Source: a virus. Taken from it: 64,000 bases of DNA. This document shows, piece after piece, positions 4,042 through 56,202 of the stretch. The position numbers were made by a program, and so were the translations under genes. Under the pieces are notes generated by a model. That model worked only from the letters and a program-made list of their open reading frames with translations, was not told where the DNA came from and ran no database searches. The DNA is taken from positions 46,536 to 110,535 of the IMG/VR virus record IMGVR_UViG_3300025237_000002. One strand, given 5' to 3'. How positions within the stretch are numbered: the first letter of the stretch is position 1; each line of letters starts with the position of its first letter.

Positions 4042-4911
4042 ATGAAACACATCGTAAGAATTGCTCCGTCACCGACTGGACAATTACATATAGGAACATT
4101 AAGGACTGCGTATTTTAATTGGTTGATAGCCAATCAAAATCCCGACAGCACATTCATTGTGCGAATCGATGACACAGATTTATCTCGTTCTCAAGATGAC
4201 CTCATTCAACCAATATTTGATTCCTTAACCAGTTATGGTTTAAAATGGGATTTAACATTCAGACAATCAAGTAGATTTAGTCGATACCAAGATTTGGCAC
4301 AAGACTTAATCAACAGTGGTAAAGCTATTAGAAGTGATGGTGCCGTTATGTTAAATAATGTACACGCATATAGTTTAGATGCTGATGATGCAGATTTAAA
4401 ATGGACTGATACCATCACAGGACCTAAAACTAAGATATCACCAGATTTGGGTTTCTTAATAAGAAACCAAGTGATTATCAAAAGTGATGGTTCGCCAACA
4501 TATAATTTCGCAAGTGCGGTTGATGATATGGATTATGGTGTAACTTGGATTGTTAGAGGTACTGACCATATAGTTAATACCTATAAGCAAGTAATCTTCT
4601 TTAACTTATTTGGAAAGCCATTACCATTATTTACACACGTAGGTTTGGTTTGTCATCCATCAGGAAAGAAGGTATCAAAGAGAGATAGTGATTCAATGGA
4701 TTTATCACAATACATCCCTGATGCATTATTAAACTACGTATTACGACTTGGATGGTCACCAAGTCAAGACGACAAAACTAATAATATAATTCCAATGGAC
4801 AAAGCAATTAACTTGTTTTTATCTGGTGGTAAAATGAGAGCACCTAACAGTAAATTAGATTTAACTAAATTACAATGGTACAATAAAAAATACACAAATG
4901 GCAATAATTAA
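4042..4911 (+). CDS. glutamyl-tRNA synthetase catalytic-domain-only protein (GluRS/GluQ family)
   Basis: RIAPSPTGQLHIG, RIDDTD, RGTDH, KVSKR, LNYVLRLGWS; 289 aa with no anticodon-binding domain. Confidence 0.85.
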   Translation: MKHIVRIAPSPTGQLHIGTLRTAYFNWLIANQNPDSTFIVRIDDTDLSRSQDDLIQPIFDSLTSYGLKWDLTFRQSSRFSRYQDLAQDLINSGKAIRSDGAVMLNNVHAYSLDADDADLKWTDTITGPKTKISPDLGFLIRNQVIIKSDGSPTYNFASAVDDMDYGVTWIVRGTDHIVNTYKQVIFFNLFGKPLPLFTHVGLVCHPSGKKVSKRDSDSMDLSQYIPDALLNYVLRLGWSPSQDDKTNNIIPMDKAINLFLSGGKMRAPNSKLDLTKLQWYNKKYTNGNN

Positions 4912-6847: not shown

Positions 6848-7084
6848 ATGGAAGTACATGAATTGATTGCAAAATTACAAAAATGTGACCCTCACGCAAC
6901 GGTCATAAGAACATCATCTAATTTTGAATTGAATGGTGCTAGTGTTAAAGCTAGTGGTGTTCATGAAAGTAAAACTGGTGAGAAGCGTCAAACGAATTGT
7001 CGTGATGCTTTTGATGGTACAGAATACACTACCGAAACTTGGAGTACCTTTGGTGGCGAAGAATCGATAATTTCAATAAGTTAA
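6848..7084 (+). CDS. hypothetical protein
   Basis: MxVxELIxKL-type phage N-terminus. Confidence 0.65.
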   Translation: MEVHELIAKLQKCDPHATVIRTSSNFELNGASVKASGVHESKTGEKRQTNCRDAFDGTEYTTETWSTFGGEESIISIS

Positions 7085-7105
7085 CAGTAAAATTAGTACA
7101 AACAA

Positions 7106-8107
7106 ATGAGTAGGAGAAATAAATTAATACAAGAATTAGAATTCTCTATTAGAAAAGCTAGGGGTAACCCACATCTTTCAAAGCTGCAATTAGATATGAT
7201 TGATGTATCTGAAAAAGTATTAAACAATTATAAAGGAATTGAAGCTATTGAAGCTGAACTTGTGCAGAAAAAAATGGCTAAAAAATTTGGAGTACAGAAA
7301 ACAAACAAACAAATGAATAATTTAATAGGTGTTAGTGGTAAAATAAAGGATGGAAAAGACCTTGTAGGAGAAATGCTTCTATATATAGGTGATAATGTTG
7401 GTGAGCCAACATACGAAGGGTTTGAACTGTATGTTAATTTGGACCCAAGATATACAATTAAGAAGTGTGCGGATAAACTTAAAGATGCCATATGTGTGAT
7501 ATTAGGATGCACAAGAGCACAGCTTGAAGATAGAGATTATAAGGAAAAGGAATTGAGTGAAGAATGGTGGTGCTACCAATTAGGTGATGGTACGCTACTA
7601 CCAAGAGGGTACTACCCCAATAAACCCGATAATGATATGTGTGAAGAACGATATCTAGTTAAATTAACACCTAGAAAAATACTACAAATATTTGGTACTC
7701 AAGGTGGTAGAATGGTAGTTCATCCTAACATATGGGTCAACGCATTATTTGCTGATTATAATTCTTATTCGGCTAGAGGTAGTGAATATGAATTTGAGAA
7801 ATCACATTGGATTATAACGGATATTAGGTTTCCAGAGAATGAAGGTAAAGCCGTATCAAGTAGAGGTGGTTTGCTGATTGGAATTAAGAGATTATTTAAT
7901 TTAAGATTTCCAGAATATACAGAATTAAACGATGCGGAGGGTTATGATATCCCTGAAGAATTGGGGGTAGTTAATCCTGAGTTATATAAAAACTTAATGC
8001 ATGAATCAGAAACTTCAATGGGTGACCATAGTTGGTGTGATGTAATTATTGAAAATAATGGAACTATTGAAGAATTATTTAATAACGTTTTAAAAGCAGT
8101 ACAATGA
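7106..8107 (+). CDS. deoxynucleoside monophosphate kinase (T4 gp1-like); alternative start at 7312
   Basis: GVSGKIKDGKD P-loop, TPRKILQIFGT, ITDIRF, HESE. Confidence 0.8.
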   Translation: MSRRNKLIQELEFSIRKARGNPHLSKLQLDMIDVSEKVLNNYKGIEAIEAELVQKKMAKKFGVQKTNKQMNNLIGVSGKIKDGKDLVGEMLLYIGDNVGEPTYEGFELYVNLDPRYTIKKCADKLKDAICVILGCTRAQLEDRDYKEKELSEEWWCYQLGDGTLLPRGYYPNKPDNDMCEERYLVKLTPRKILQIFGTQGGRMVVHPNIWVNALFADYNSYSARGSEYEFEKSHWIITDIRFPENEGKAVSSRGGLLIGIKRLFNLRFPEYTELNDAEGYDIPEELGVVNPELYKNLMHESETSMGDHSWCDVIIENNGTIEELFNNVLKAVQ

Positions 8108-19845: not shown

Positions 19846-20482
19846 AATACCATACAGATTTGGTAAATCATTCAAGTTCCAAGCACCTGATGATTTCACA
19901 CTAGAAATCAGTGTAACCAACGACCCTAGAAGTGCTGGTACAGCATACTATTACACCTTTGATATGTTTATTGATAGTGTACTAATTGATTCATTACCTG
20001 AACCTGTAAAAGGTAGGGAATGGGACCATTATATGGACCTTCCATATGACCAAAGCATACCTGAAGAGTTTATAAATGCTCTTCTAAAAGTTGGTTATAT
20101 AGTTGATAATCAATTCTTTGAAAATGGGGCTGCCCAATTTAGTAAATACCACAAACTTTATGTGACCAAAGCTGATAATCAAACTAAAATAATGTTAAAT
20201 AACATTAAGAAAGTTGAGCCACAAGATAAGAAATGGAAGTTAAAGTTCAACAGATTTCTTAATATGAATGAAACAAGATTGATTGTCGAAATGCGAGGGC
20301 ATTGTGTTGGTGGTAGTTATACACATGATTGGGAAGTAACACCAAGCTACATTAGTCGATTACAAGAAGTAACATGTAGAAAGGTTGAGTTTCTATCACG
20401 TAAAAATGGTGGAATTAGTTCGGATATCTATAGATTCGCAATACATCTTGATAGTAAAACACTTAAATCCCCAAAACTTTAG
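19832..20482 (+). CDS. hypothetical protein
   Basis: 216 aa ORF. Confidence 0.7.
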   Translation: MKNVKIPYRFGKSFKFQAPDDFTLEISVTNDPRSAGTAYYYTFDMFIDSVLIDSLPEPVKGREWDHYMDLPYDQSIPEEFINALLKVGYIVDNQFFENGAAQFSKYHKLYVTKADNQTKIMLNNIKKVEPQDKKWKLKFNRFLNMNETRLIVEMRGHCVGGSYTHDWEVTPSYISRLQEVTCRKVEFLSRKNGGISSDIYRFAIHLDSKTLKSPKL

Positions 20483-38319: not shown

Positions 38320-38386
38320 AGTATAGGGTTCTGCGGAGTCTACTCTTCTAACTTGTTAGGTCAGCCCTTACCATCTTGGTACACTA
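38320..38386 (-). ncRNA. putative small RNA, GAAGAGURGACUCC family, copy C
   Basis: promoter at 38387-38420, no ORF, motif shared with 49728 and 52566. Confidence 0.5.
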
Positions 38387-39828: not shown

Positions 39829-40010
39829 ATTATATGGTTTTAATTAAACATACTGCAAATATACAACTAATAATTCAATCTCACAAATAAAATATCTTGC
39901 TTAAGGTGCGTGAATAGCGGCTTAAGCAGAGGTTAGCTGCTAGAGCGTGAAGATAAATTTGCCAGGTCCAAAATAAAGTTGTATCTTTGAGGTATAAATA
40001 AATAAACAAT

Positions 40011-45125: not shown

Positions 45126-45217
45126 CAATATTAGGACCTATGGTATGAGGGTGCCATGGGTCCAGCGGTATAAGCAGCTGGTCGAAGCTTGAAAACTACA
45201 GACCGTTTTAGTTAAAC

Positions 45218-45252
45218 ATGTGGTCTGGGGTGGTTCCCAGACCACTTTTTTT
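45218..45252 (+). terminator. intrinsic terminator
   Basis: GTGGTCTGGG-TGGTT-CCCAGACCAC-T tract. Confidence 0.85.
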
Positions 45253-49727: not shown

Positions 49728-49774
49728 GTAGGTTGGAGTCTACTCTTCCACCTAAGTGCGCCCGTCTTCCACTA
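49728..49774 (-). ncRNA. putative small RNA, GAAGAGURGACUCC family, copy B
   Basis: own promoter 49775-49808, no ORF. Confidence 0.5.
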
Positions 49775-49831
49775 CAAAGATAAGGAAAATAAATAACCCC
49801 ACCTAATTAAAGTGAGGTTATTTTAGATAAA

Positions 49832-51266: not shown

Positions 51267-52007
51267 TTAGGTTATTTTTAAACTATTCTTTAAACATGTG
51301 TCTAATTCAATAGCTAATTGTTTTTCATCTTCACTAAATTTCATCTTCTTTTCTTGACGTACAATGAAAGGTCGTACTAAATCATGATTGTATTTGTCGT
51401 TTCTCATGAATTTAATGATAGCACGTCTACAAAATGCTTTTGTTGGTAAGTAGTCTTTTAAATCTACGATTTGATTAATGATGGTATCTGACTTGGCTTC
51501 ATCAATAAATTTAAGTTTACCTTTTCGAAAATCTACCATTTTACCTTGACCTGTATAACACATAACCAAAGGTGAAATTTGTATTCCTGTTTCCTCTTGG
51601 ATAGCTTTTAATCTAACATATTCTCTAATTTTTAAAGTTGACCATATGTGAATGAATTGGTTTGTTCCCCAACCTTTAGCACTATTATTCACATCTGCAA
51701 TAAATTCAGCTAATTCTATTTCAGAATCAACTTCAACAACTCTAAATTCAATTGCAAGTCCTAATTGTACTGCGGCCGTAAAACGGTGTTGACCATCTAA
51801 AAGATAGTAATGTTTTTGACCATCATCATCGAAGATGTCAGTCAATATAACAATTAACGTTGAAATAAATCCACGCTCCTTCATTGACTCTTTTAACGTG
51901 TTAACGTGAGTTTGTTTGATATCTCGATTAAAATCAAATGTTTTAAAAAGTTTGTAGTCAGTACTTGAGAAAATGTTTGTTACTAATTTAAAAACTGGCT
52001 TATTCAT
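51267..52007 (-). CDS. ParB/Sulfiredoxin-like (DGQHR) domain protein
   Basis: NRDIKQTHV..LKESM, LLDGQHR; start corrected. Confidence 0.75.
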   Translation of the reverse strand: MNKPVFKLVTNIFSSTDYKLFKTFDFNRDIKQTHVNTLKESMKERGFISTLIVILTDIFDDDGQKHYYLLDGQHRFTAAVQLGLAIEFRVVEVDSEIELAEFIADVNNSAKGWGTNQFIHIWSTLKIREYVRLKAIQEETGIQISPLVMCYTGQGKMVDFRKGKLKFIDEAKSDTIINQIVDLKDYLPTKAFCRRAIIKFMRNDKYNHDLVRPFIVRQEKKMKFSEDEKQLAIELDTCLKNSLKIT

Positions 52008-52089
52008 AATATGATTATTTGTTTTGTTTGTTGGTACAAAGATAAGGTAAAAAAATGAACCCACCTAATAAAAGGTGGGTTATTTTAAT

Positions 52090-52565: not shown

Positions 52566-52630
52566 AGTATAGGGTTCGGTGGAGTCCACTCTTCCGCTAT
52601 CTTGTAAGATACTCAGCCCGTCAACCACTA
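52566..52630 (-). ncRNA. putative small RNA, GAAGAGURGACUCC family, copy A
   Basis: own promoter 52631-52664, no ORF. Confidence 0.5.
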
Positions 52631-52642
52631 CAAAGATACAAC

Positions 52643-52678
52643 AAAAAAAGAACCCCACCTAATATTAGGTGGGGTTTT
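52643..52678 (-). terminator. terminator overlapping the next promoter
   Basis: AACCCCACCT-loop-AGGTGGGGTT-CTTTTTTT; same design at 49794, 52058, 56071. Confidence 0.75.
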
Positions 52679-53369: not shown

Positions 53370-53909
53370 TTATACGTGACAAGAAATTGTTTCATTCAAT
53401 TGTTCTAATGTGAATGCTTCATAACTAGCTTTGTTATACTCCATTAATGCATCCAATAACGATTGGTAATATACACTAATATTGTCGTCATTAATCTTAG
53501 CCATAACTTCATCATATTTGTAGAAAGGTATGTAACCACTCTTTGACGTTGTAGTATCTTCGACAATACCTTCTAATATACTTTGTAGGTCGGAATCATT
53601 AGCTACAAGTAAATCTAATTGAATTAAATCTTCTTTTGATATCTTAACTGAAATAGTGTCAGTTCCATAGTTGTAGAATTTTGGACTGTTTAGCTCAACA
53701 TACTCTAAGGTTAATTCAACTCCAAATTCATCTTCAATATATTCAGCAAATTTTAAAGTAATGTCCTTAGCTACTTCGTTATGTAGGTTTTTGAAGTCAA
53801 CTGCATCCGAATCGATTGTATTTTCTTCATCTTCATCATATACTACATCATCAATAGCAGCTGAGTAAAGGCTTTCGTAAAATCCACCAAAGTTAAAAAG
53901 AGTTTCCAT
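53370..53909 (-). CDS. acidic hypothetical phage protein
   Basis: FGGFYES, SPKFYNYGTD motifs. Confidence 0.75.
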   Translation of the reverse strand: METLFNFGGFYESLYSAAIDDVVYDEDEENTIDSDAVDFKNLHNEVAKDITLKFAEYIEDEFGVELTLEYVELNSPKFYNYGTDTISVKISKEDLIQLDLLVANDSDLQSILEGIVEDTTTSKSGYIPFYKYDEVMAKINDDNISVYYQSLLDALMEYNKASYEAFTLEQLNETISCHV

Positions 53910-53979
53910 AATTGTGATTGTTTGTTTTGTTCAATACAAAGATACAACTTTTATTTCGTTCTACCTAATTTAAAGACAT

Positions 53980-54060
53980 AAAAAAAGAGAGCCATTTAGC
54001 AGAATGACCCCCTTAAGAAAAAATAAACAAACAAATAATCAAATGTACTTTTATAATCTG
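53980..54060 (-). ncRNA. putative ~80 nt sRNA antisense to A-rich translation-initiation leaders
   Basis: promoter 54066-54099, U-rich core CAUUUGAUUAUUUGUUUGUUU, G-U-containing terminator 53980-54012. Confidence 0.6.
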
Positions 54061-54113
54061 AATACAAAGATATGTAATCTCCAAAACATATCCTAATATT
54101 TTAACACTTATTT

Positions 54114-54275
54114 TTAATTTTCACTACAACTTACTATTGTTGCACTATCCGAATACTCTGCACAGGCTTCTTTGCTTGTGTTAGCTTCCACATCTTCCCA
54201 TTGCTTATAATCGCTTGGGTCTTCTTTATGTGAGAAACAATTCGGGATAAATACTACTGTAAATGATTTTGACAT
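54114..54275 (-). CDS. small protein (VEANTSKEA motif)
   Basis: start corrected; flanked by 54 bp direct repeats. Confidence 0.65.
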   Translation of the reverse strand: MSKSFTVVFIPNCFSHKEDPSDYKQWEDVEANTSKEACAEYSDSATIVSCSEN

Positions 54276-54347
54276 AATATAGTTTTTGTTTGGTACAAAG
54301 ATATGAAATCTCCAAGGCATATCCTAATATTTTAACACTTATTTTTA

Positions 54348-54506
54348 TTAACAACTTTGGTCACAAGGTCGCCAATCACAAGTCTTACATTCTAATGGTG
54401 AATAGCTACAACTGTTATAAGCGTCTCCATCAACTGTTGGCTCTCCACAATCTGTGCATTCACCATCAATTTCACTTTCTTTATAATCTGTTGCATCACA
54501 ACACAT
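54348..54506 (-). CDS. Cys-rich miniprotein (52 aa, 9 Cys)
   Basis: manual translation MCCDATDY...RPCDQSC; A-rich leader. Confidence 0.6.
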   Translation of the reverse strand: MCCDATDYKESEIDGECTDCGEPTVDGDAYNSCSYSPLECKTCDWRPCDQSC

Positions 54507-54739
54507 AATCTTGTTTTATTTTAATAATCTTCTTTTTGTGCGAGAAGCCATTTCTTATTTTACAAAGATACAACTTTATTTCGACTCTACCAAATGAAAT
54601 TGGTCAATTTTTCTAGATACTGAATCAATCCAACTGGATATACAACTATCCTTAGCTTTTCTCATCTCTTTTCTTAACTTGTCCATGATTGTTTGTTTTG
54701 TTCAATACAAAGATACAACCTTTATTTCAATCTACCTAA

Positions 54740-56034: not shown

Positions 56035-56202
56035 GATTATTTTGTTTACTCAAAGATACAATAAAAAAAGAACCCCACCTAATAAAAGGTGAGGTTTTTT
56101 AGCGGATTAGGTCAGCAATCACTCCGACCAGTTCCTAAACAAAACATAATCACGCCCCTCTGTAGTTGCACGGATGTGCTTGGCGAGGGGTGAGTCTTAA
56201 TA

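What the first reader, a model, noticed from the sequence alone, without database searches (positions are those of the whole stretch)
53980..54060. Candidate anti-leader sRNA complementary to the shared translation-initiation region
Seen: a cassette promoter (54066-54099) drives about 80 nt with no ORF, ending in a terminator whose G-U pairs fix the - strand. Its unstructured core CAUUUGAUUAUUUGUUUGUUUAUUU is the reverse complement of AAAUAAACAAACAAAUAAUCAAAUG, i.e. the cassette leader plus start codon. It matches the ParB-like gene leader for 13 nt (52012-52024) and partly matches dozens of others. Known: Bacteroidetes initiate at A-rich leaders without SD. Inference: one sRNA could shut off the whole early regulon, or block host mRNAs; I do not know of a described equivalent.
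Basis: partly seen in the sequence, partly recalled or inferred. Interest (0 to 1): 0.8.

Follow-up and report, generated by a model that had tools for sequence, protein, structure and literature searches.

The report
Phage anti-leader RNA before a terminator
An uncultured marine giant phage has a promoter-driven, ORF-free ~80-nt RNA whose U/G-rich tract mirrors the shared A-rich start region of its cassette genes; similar tracts sit just before terminators in related phages, so it is probably an untested brake on translation.

Summary
On the minus strand a Bacteroidota-type promoter (TTAGGA 54096-54091, TATCTTTG 54072-54065) is followed by about 80 nt with no ORF. The unit ends in a hairpin plus U-run that folds only on the minus strand (-15.5 vs -2.7 kcal/mol).

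The tract 54045-54015 pairs with the phage's own minus-arm leaders better than with controls. Mean duplex energy is -10.0, against -6.2 for shuffled leaders and -6.5 for random 24-mers. The 13-nt exact match to the ParB-like gene leader is real.

It is not unique. The window holds a second tract at 56154-56134 and possibly a third at 45203-45221. Related contigs, including a complete 288-kb phage, put a complement of their own leader type just 5' of terminators: 12 of 48 terminators, against 3.4% expected and 5 of 48 in a composition control.

In the closest relative, 26/26 nt of the tract and the hairpin core are identical, with one compensatory stem change. The sequence upstream is unrelated, and the anti-start-codon CAU is not conserved.

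No expression data exist, and trans versus cis action is unresolved.

Earlier notes of this scan describe similar anti-leader elements in other phages. I found no paper describing one.

Verdict: a plausible regulatory RNA module, a new variant of known anti-RBS logic.

The parts
54294..54347 (-). Upstream copy of the variant promoter repeat (P*1). It drives the 53-aa ORF.
   Evidence: Direct repeat with 54063-54116, few differences, -33 and -7 boxes intact.
54114..54275 (-). 53-aa ORF of unknown function. Its mRNA would carry the anti-leader and terminator as its 3' tail.
   Evidence: ORF after the leader of P*1. No Pfam or PHROG hit.
54063..54116 (-). Downstream promoter copy (P*2): -33 TTAGGA at 54096-54091, -7 TATCTTTG at 54072-54065.
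   Evidence: Motifs and spacing as in the canonical cassettes. Activity is inferred, not shown.
53980..54060 (-). Predicted ~80-nt ORF-free transcript.
   Evidence: Promoter to U-run with no AUG between them. The fold is strand-specific.
54015..54045 (-). Anti-leader tract. The part conserved in L010 starts at 54040.
   Evidence: Complementarity to leaders. 26/26 nt identical in L010.
53978..54014 (-). Intrinsic terminator hairpin (54014-53985) plus U-run.
   Evidence: One compensatory G-C to A-U change against L010.
53907..53968 (-). Next canonical promoter, leader and ATG of the 179-aa gene. This is the cis partner if the terminator is read through.
   Evidence: Duplex with the anti-leader is -11.5, rank 8 of 20. 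Read-through fold.
52005..52032 (-). Leader of the ParB-like gene, the best predicted partner (-15.6 kcal/mol; 13 nt exact at 52012-52024).
56071..56154 (-). Second anti-leader (56154-56134), in the 3' UTR of the 119-aa gene, followed by a hairpin and the terminator 56096-56071.
   Evidence: Top-ranked window of the whole arm, -16.2, z -5.5. Conserved in L010.
45203..45243 (+). Possible third anti-leader, abutting a plus-strand terminator. It is the complement of the second leader type (GTTTAATTAAAAC).
   Evidence: In the top 0.3% of windows. Ambiguous because that leader is partly palindromic.

Best explanation
The locus is one copy of a recurrent phage RNA module: a U/G-rich single-stranded tract that complements the phage's own A/C-rich, Shine-Dalgarno-less mRNA leaders, placed directly 5' of an intrinsic terminator.

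Here the module is made in two forms. One is an ~80-nt RNA from the duplicated promoter P*2. The other is the 3' tail of the 53-aa gene mRNA from P*1.

The tract pairs with the leader, roughly -26 to -8 and sometimes the AUG, of cassette mRNAs. It pairs best with the ParB-like gene and several AACAAAACAAACAATCA-type leaders. Initiation in Bacteroidota depends on an open, A-rich leader, so pairing should reduce ribosome loading and damp that gene set. This would act mainly in trans, and also in cis on any transcript that reads through the terminator into the next cassette.

Shown: the anatomy, the strand-specific terminator, complementarity above controls, recurrence next to terminators, and conservation in one relative.

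Inferred: transcription, pairing in vivo, repression, and timing.
For: 1. Anatomy and strand specificity.

2. Specific complementarity. Minus-arm leaders average -10.0, against plus-strand leaders -6.2, random 24-mers -6.5 and shuffled leaders -6.2 (Mann-Whitney p 6e-5 to 3e-8). Shuffled-RNA control.

3. Position. The only two antisense leader-like sites in the 16-kb arm both precede terminators.

4. Recurrence. In L011, L184, L192/G001 and the window, the best or near-best window for pairing with that contig's own leaders lies just 5' of a terminator (z -4.4 to -6.9). Energies are 4-12 kcal/mol better than against reversed leaders. Pooled, 12 of 48 terminators score this way against 3.4% in the null (p 5e-8).

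5. The tract follows the leader type. It complements GTTAATCAATTAAAAC leaders in G001, AATAATCAAAACAT leaders in L011 and AACAAAACAAAC leaders here.

6. Conservation. In L010 the tract (26/26) and hairpin core (23/23) are identical, while the neighbouring 179-aa gene is 84% identical in DNA. There is one compensatory stem change. Upstream DNA is unrelated, yet again ORF-free and promoter-driven.

7. Two paralogous modules in L011 keep the tract while their stems differ by compensatory changes.

8. In G001 the strongest tract is the 3' trailer of a tRNA-like gene. tRNA 3' processing could release such a trailer as a free small RNA; this step is inferred.

9. Background: translation in Flavobacteria depends on unstructured A-rich leaders rather than SD pairing (PMC6847099, PMC7797042).
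Against: - There is no transcript evidence of any kind.
- Part of the terminator-adjacent signal is compositional. The reversed-leader control gives 5 of 48, and the k-mer enrichment is only about 2.4-fold.
- The A-U/G-U-rich duplexes are modest, -8 to -16 kcal/mol.
- The core is partly self-paired, with unpaired probability 0.59.
- Only one homologous copy, in a close relative, could be examined. Repeated regulatory cassettes may stay identical through gene conversion rather than selection.
- One RNA would have to compete with about 20 strongly promoted mRNAs.
- P*2 could be a by-product of cassette insertion.
Confidence: 0.45

Rival explanations
1. Cis-only insulator. The anti-leader exists to silence read-through. 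A transcript that escapes the terminator carries the anti-leader about 100 nt upstream of the next cassette's leader and folds back on it. The downstream gene is then translated only from its own promoter, which lies between the two arms. This is the logic of T4 genes e, soc, 49 and I-TevI.
For: The order anti-leader, terminator, promoter, leader, with about 104-111 nt spacing, recurs at most sites. The read-through fold pairs the UUUGUUUG tract with the downstream AAACAAAC leader. In L010 the downstream leader is the best partner. T4 precedent: PMC3014915.
Against: The downstream leader is usually not the preferred partner; its ranks are 8/20, 18/20, 8/13, 8/17 and 15/17. The read-through fold is not better than shuffles (z -1.4). 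A dedicated promoter directly in front of the tract, here and in L010, is not needed for this role.
Confidence: 0.2
2. No RNA function. The tract is a scar of cassette shuffling, an inverted leader fragment left by recombination at repeated promoter and leader sequences. U-rich composition before terminators adds to the signal. The short transcript is a harmless by-product of the duplicated promoter.
For: Cassette order differs between the window and L010, and homology breaks exactly at the tract. The 54-nt repeats flank a single ORF. The composition control is not empty, at 5 of 48. Mobile promoter/terminator cassettes are known in T4-type phages (PMC2839356, PMC4122927).
Against: Scars should not cluster 5' of terminators in four independent contigs, each with its own leader type. 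None carries the inverted -7 box expected of an inverted cassette. The tract is better conserved than the adjacent coding DNA. Paralogues in L011 keep the tract while their stems change.
Confidence: 0.22
3. Intramolecular 5'-3' pairing, as in icaR. The tract in the 3' tail folds back on the leader of the same mRNA to block its translation or alter its decay.
For: At two other sites the transcript's own leader is the best partner: the 56154 element, and L192 position 6291. Precedents: PMC3868564 and PMC5737220.
Against: At this locus the 53-aa gene's own leader is the worst of 20 partners, at -5.0. The P*2 transcript and the L010 transcript have no leader at all.
Confidence: 0.08
4. A DNA-level or protein-binding site. 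The leader motif in inverse orientation would be an operator or a recombination site, or the RNA would be a decoy for a leader-binding protein.
For: The leader motif is strongly conserved as DNA next to promoters. Nothing here excludes this.
Against: There is no candidate binding protein. The strand-specific link with G-U-containing terminators points to RNA.
Confidence: 0.05

Closest known systems
3'UTR-derived and terminator-sharing base-pairing sRNAs of bacteria, and candidate UTR-derived ncRNAs of virulent phages (PMC10914365); Bacteroides sRNAs such as GibS that pair at translation initiation regions (PMC7366714)
   Same: The seed lies in a single-stranded stretch directly 5' of an intrinsic terminator. 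The RNA can be made from an internal promoter or as the tail of an mRNA. It would act on translation initiation regions.
   Different: The predicted target is a leader shared by a whole phage gene set, not one or a few mRNAs. There is no Rfam family. The host phylum lacks SD-based initiation. Nothing here is tested experimentally.
icaR mRNA 5'-3' UTR pairing in Staphylococcus aureus (PMC3868564); hbs mRNA in B. subtilis (PMC5737220)
   Same: An anti-RBS sequence in the 3' UTR just before the terminator.
   Different: Those act on their own 5' UTR through an anti-SD motif. Here the transcript's own leader is the poorest partner, and the target is an A-rich leader without SD.
T4 genes e, soc, 49 and I-TevI: the RBS is sequestered in long early transcripts and freed in transcripts from a proximal promoter (PMC3014915)
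   Same: The upstream arm lies before the proximal promoter and the downstream arm is the initiation region of the next gene. Both are phage timing or insulation devices.
   Different: Here a terminator lies between the arms, the arms are about 100 nt apart, and the tract matches many leaders rather than one.
T4 RegB endoribonuclease (PMC3014915)
   Same: It inactivates many early mRNAs by attacking a motif shared by their initiation regions.
   Different: RegB is a protein nuclease. Here an RNA would act by base pairing.
PeSL promoter/stem-loop cassettes of T4-type phages (PMC2839356, PMC4122927)
   Same: Repeated terminator-plus-promoter units lie between small variable genes. Gene order is shuffled between close relatives.
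   Different: PeSLs are not described as carrying a complement of the leader. The phage group and promoter type are also different.

Membership tests
Trans-acting base-pairing sRNA (generic class) | Own promoter and defined 5' end | tested here: inconclusive
   The -33 and -7 motifs and their spacing match the cassette promoters. No start-site data.
Trans-acting base-pairing sRNA (generic class) | Non-coding, ending at an intrinsic terminator | tested here: met
   No AUG-initiated ORF. Strand-specific hairpin plus U-run.
Trans-acting base-pairing sRNA (generic class) | Accessible seed with target complementarity above chance | tested here: met
   Energies beat shuffled RNA, shuffled leaders, random 24-mers and the other leader class. 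The seed is only partly open, at 0.59.
Trans-acting base-pairing sRNA (generic class) | Seed conserved among relatives | tested here: inconclusive
   26/26 identical in L010, against 84% in the neighbouring gene. That is a single close relative. No other copy in IMG/VR.
Trans-acting base-pairing sRNA (generic class) | Detected transcript and target repression | not testable with these tools
   No RNA data were available to test this.
icaR-type 5'-3' UTR pairing | The 3' UTR tract complements the 5' UTR of the same mRNA | tested here: not met
   The leader of the 53-aa gene gives -5.0, rank 20 of 20.
T4-type RBS sequestration in read-through transcripts | The upstream arm lies 5' of the proximal promoter and pairs with the downstream initiation region | tested here: inconclusive
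   The layout is met. Pairing is -11.5, rank 8 of 20, and the fold z is -1.4.
PeSL-like mobile regulatory cassettes | Repeated terminator-plus-promoter units flanking variable genes, shuffled between relatives | tested here: met
   This describes the surroundings, not the anti-leader itself.
Any Rfam family | Covariance-model match | tested here: not met
   No hit near the gathering score in the window region or in L010.

The most novel reading that the evidence does not exclude
Marine Bacteroidota-type giant phages, and possibly many other phages, run an RNA-based control of their cassette genes. Short anti-leader RNAs are made as stand-alone units, mRNA 3' tails or tRNA trailers. They accumulate with early transcription and titrate the shared SD-less leader, shutting down or pacing a whole gene set. 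This would be an RNA counterpart of T4 RegB.
Probability: 0.3. Interest if true: 0.8.

Novelty: new variant of a known kind. Interest (0 to 1): 0.6.

Why it matters
How phages of Bacteroidota time and limit expression of their many small early genes is essentially unknown. These hosts initiate translation without Shine-Dalgarno pairing, so leader accessibility is the main control point.

A conserved RNA tract matched to the phage's private leader would be a simple, evolvable switch acting on a whole gene set. It is directly testable with leader reporters in Flavobacterium.

It would also give a practical annotation rule for uncultured phage genomes: look for the complement of the leader just before terminators.

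Tried and rejected
- Public runs: only the likely source DNA run was listed and no RNA holder, so nothing was laid.
The contigs behind the closer homologues P0001-P0009 (up to 158 kb) could not be fetched. Comparison rests on L010, L011, L012, L184 and L192/G001.
- Exact-pattern scans of IMG/VR found nothing: the whole hairpin, the hairpin core, the anti-leader tract and the canonical promoter.
- Megablast against GenBank phages found nothing. A distant search hit only the generic promoter and leader, in Prevotella Lak phages and a Chryseobacterium phage.
- Rfam gave only chance-level hits.
- The sigma-70 promoter scan is uninformative for this promoter type.
- Plus-strand gene remnant (17-codon ORF at 54043): rejected. 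There is no plus-strand promoter, and the ATG and ORF are absent in L010.
- Tiny minus-strand peptide: only a 9-codon TTG frame, not pursued.
- The 5' 200 nt of the L010 transcript has no relative in the own genome or in any fetched locus, and its fold z is -0.7.
- L009 and the other relatives at 30-38% identity lack the cassette design.

Full report
**Setting**

The window is the last 64 kb of a 110.5-kb IMG/VR virus record from a marine metagenome, 32% G+C. CheckV rates the record 31% complete. A related record, G001, is a complete 287,855-bp phage with terminal repeats. This is therefore a giant-phage lineage.

Window 48.2-64 kb is a minus-strand arm of small genes. Almost every gene has its own Bacteroidota-type promoter (TTAGGT/TTTGGT, about 19 nt, TATCTTTG) and a near-identical A/C-rich leader without a Shine-Dalgarno sequence (GAACAAAACAAACAATCA...ATG). 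The only GenBank phage matches to this locus are to that promoter and leader, in Prevotella and Chryseobacterium phages.

**The observation**

On the minus strand, TTAGGA (54096-54091) and TATCTTTG (54072-54065) have the register of the canonical cassettes. This promoter is the second copy of a ~54-nt direct repeat. The first copy (54347-54294) drives a 53-aa ORF.

From about 54060 there is no AUG until after a hairpin at 54014-53985 and its U-run.

The RNA folds at -15.5 kcal/mol on the minus strand (z -2.7) and -2.7 on the plus strand.

The 25-nt core is unique in the window. The 13-nt exact match to the leader of the ParB-like gene (52012-52024) is correct.

**Is the complementarity more than chance?**

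- Against 22 leaders the 5' region gives a mean duplex energy of -11.4 kcal/mol, versus -7.6 +/- 1.4 for shuffled RNA.
- It averages -10.0 on minus-arm leaders, against -6.2 on plus-strand leaders, -6.5 on random 24-mers and -6.2 on shuffled leaders.
- Leader-like 16-mers on the antisense strand of the arm occur at only two places, this one and 56137-56154. Both are upstream of terminators.
- The tract is only partly open, with unpaired probability 0.59.

**Relatives**

The 179-aa neighbour has homologues at 43-88% identity.

In L010 (a TARA scaffold; 87% protein and 84% DNA identity in the 179-aa gene), the block from 54040 to 53908 is 91% identical but sits elsewhere in the cassette order. 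The 26-nt tract and the 23-nt hairpin core are identical. One stem pair has changed G-C to A-U on both sides.

Homology stops exactly at the 5' edge of the tract. L010 has no CAU there. Upstream it has an unrelated ~200-nt ORF-free stretch behind a canonical promoter. Two phages therefore make different ORF-free transcripts that end in the same tract plus terminator.

**A recurrent design**

I scanned each contig in 30-nt windows for pairing with that contig's own leaders.

| Contig | Result |
|---|---|
| Window, minus arm | 56154-56134 element ranks 1 (-16.2, z -5.5); this locus ranks 4 (-13.9, top 0.3%) |
| L011 | Ranks 1 and 3 are two paralogous tract-plus-hairpin modules in 3' UTRs; their stems differ by compensatory changes |
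| L184 | Rank 2 abuts a terminator |
| L192/G001 | Rank 1 (-19 to -20, z about -5 to -7) and several more abut terminators |

The tracts complement the local leader type, which differs between phages.

Pooled, 12 of 48 terminators have an upstream window in the top 1.2%, against 3.4% for random positions (p 5e-8). A reversed-leader control, which keeps composition, gives 5 of 48. A k-mer count gives 12 near and 72 elsewhere, against 4 and 65 for a complement-only control. Composition therefore contributes, but the strongest cases exceed it by 4-12 kcal/mol.

None of the tracts carries an inverted -7 box, so they are not inverted cassettes.

In G001 the best tract is the 3' trailer of a tRNA-like gene.

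The plus arm of the window has one more candidate, at 45203-45221.

**Mechanism**

Neither the transcript's own leader nor the next downstream leader is consistently the best partner. At this locus the 53-aa gene's own leader is the worst, at -5.0. That speaks against icaR-type self-pairing.

The downstream 179-aa leader is average (-11.5, rank 8 of 20), and the read-through fold is not significant.

Complementarity at the level of the leader family, plus dedicated promoters here and in L010, fits trans action best. Cis silencing of read-through transcripts is a possible added effect. None of this is shown experimentally.

**Known context**

- Bacteroidota initiate on open A-rich leaders (PMC6847099, PMC7797042).
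- Anti-RBS tracts in 3' UTRs are known (icaR, PMC3868564; hbs, PMC5737220).
- T4 sequesters initiation regions in long transcripts and uses RegB to inactivate early mRNAs (PMC3014915).
- Shuffling promoter/terminator cassettes are known in T4-type phages (PMC2839356, PMC4122927).
- UTR-derived phage ncRNA candidates exist (PMC10914365).
- My searches found no paper on anti-leader RNAs in Bacteroidota phages.
- Earlier notes of this scan report similar elements in other phage genomes. These are AI notes and I did not test them.

**Verdict**

This is a plausible regulatory RNA module and one instance of a recurrent design, with function and mode of action untested.

Noticed in passing
window 52566-52630, 49728-49774, 38320-38386 (minus strand); L010 about 7075-7125; L011 about 4826-4875; L012 about 100-170: Promoter-driven ORF-free cassettes share a core like GAAGAGTAGACTCC. 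Similar stretches occur in three related contigs, suggesting a conserved small RNA family. ARAGORN finds no tRNA in the window.
   Followed up: no
window 56071-56096, 52651-52676, 52058-52081, about 49797-49817: Terminator hairpins contain the -33 box (TTAGGT) of the next promoter in their loop and 3' arm, and the U-run serves as promoter spacer. One ~50-nt unit ends one transcript and starts the next.
   Followed up: partly
window 54063-54116 and 54294-54347: Near-identical ~54-nt direct repeats bracket a single 53-aa ORF that is absent from the fetched part of L010. This is consistent with cassette insertion or duplication.
   Followed up: partly
L010 5838-6040: About 200 nt with no ORF lie between a canonical promoter and the conserved anti-leader. 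The stretch has no relative in any sequence held, and its fold is not better than shuffles.
   Followed up: partly
G001 20088-20157 (minus strand; L200 1571-1640): A tRNA-like gene, called tRNA-His with the unusual anticodon ATG, sits in a long 3' UTR and is followed at once by the strongest anti-leader and a terminator.
   Followed up: partly
window 54348-54506 (minus strand): A 52-aa cysteine-rich protein matches phrog_13157 (unknown function, E 1.6e-15). It has an unusually long 56-nt leader after the promoter at 54570.
   Followed up: no
window 39833-39862 (plus strand): The best plus-arm anti-leader signal is simply the reverse complement of the leader of a minus-strand gene embedded in the plus arm (promoter at 39863). 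Plus-strand read-through there would be antisense to that leader.
   Followed up: no
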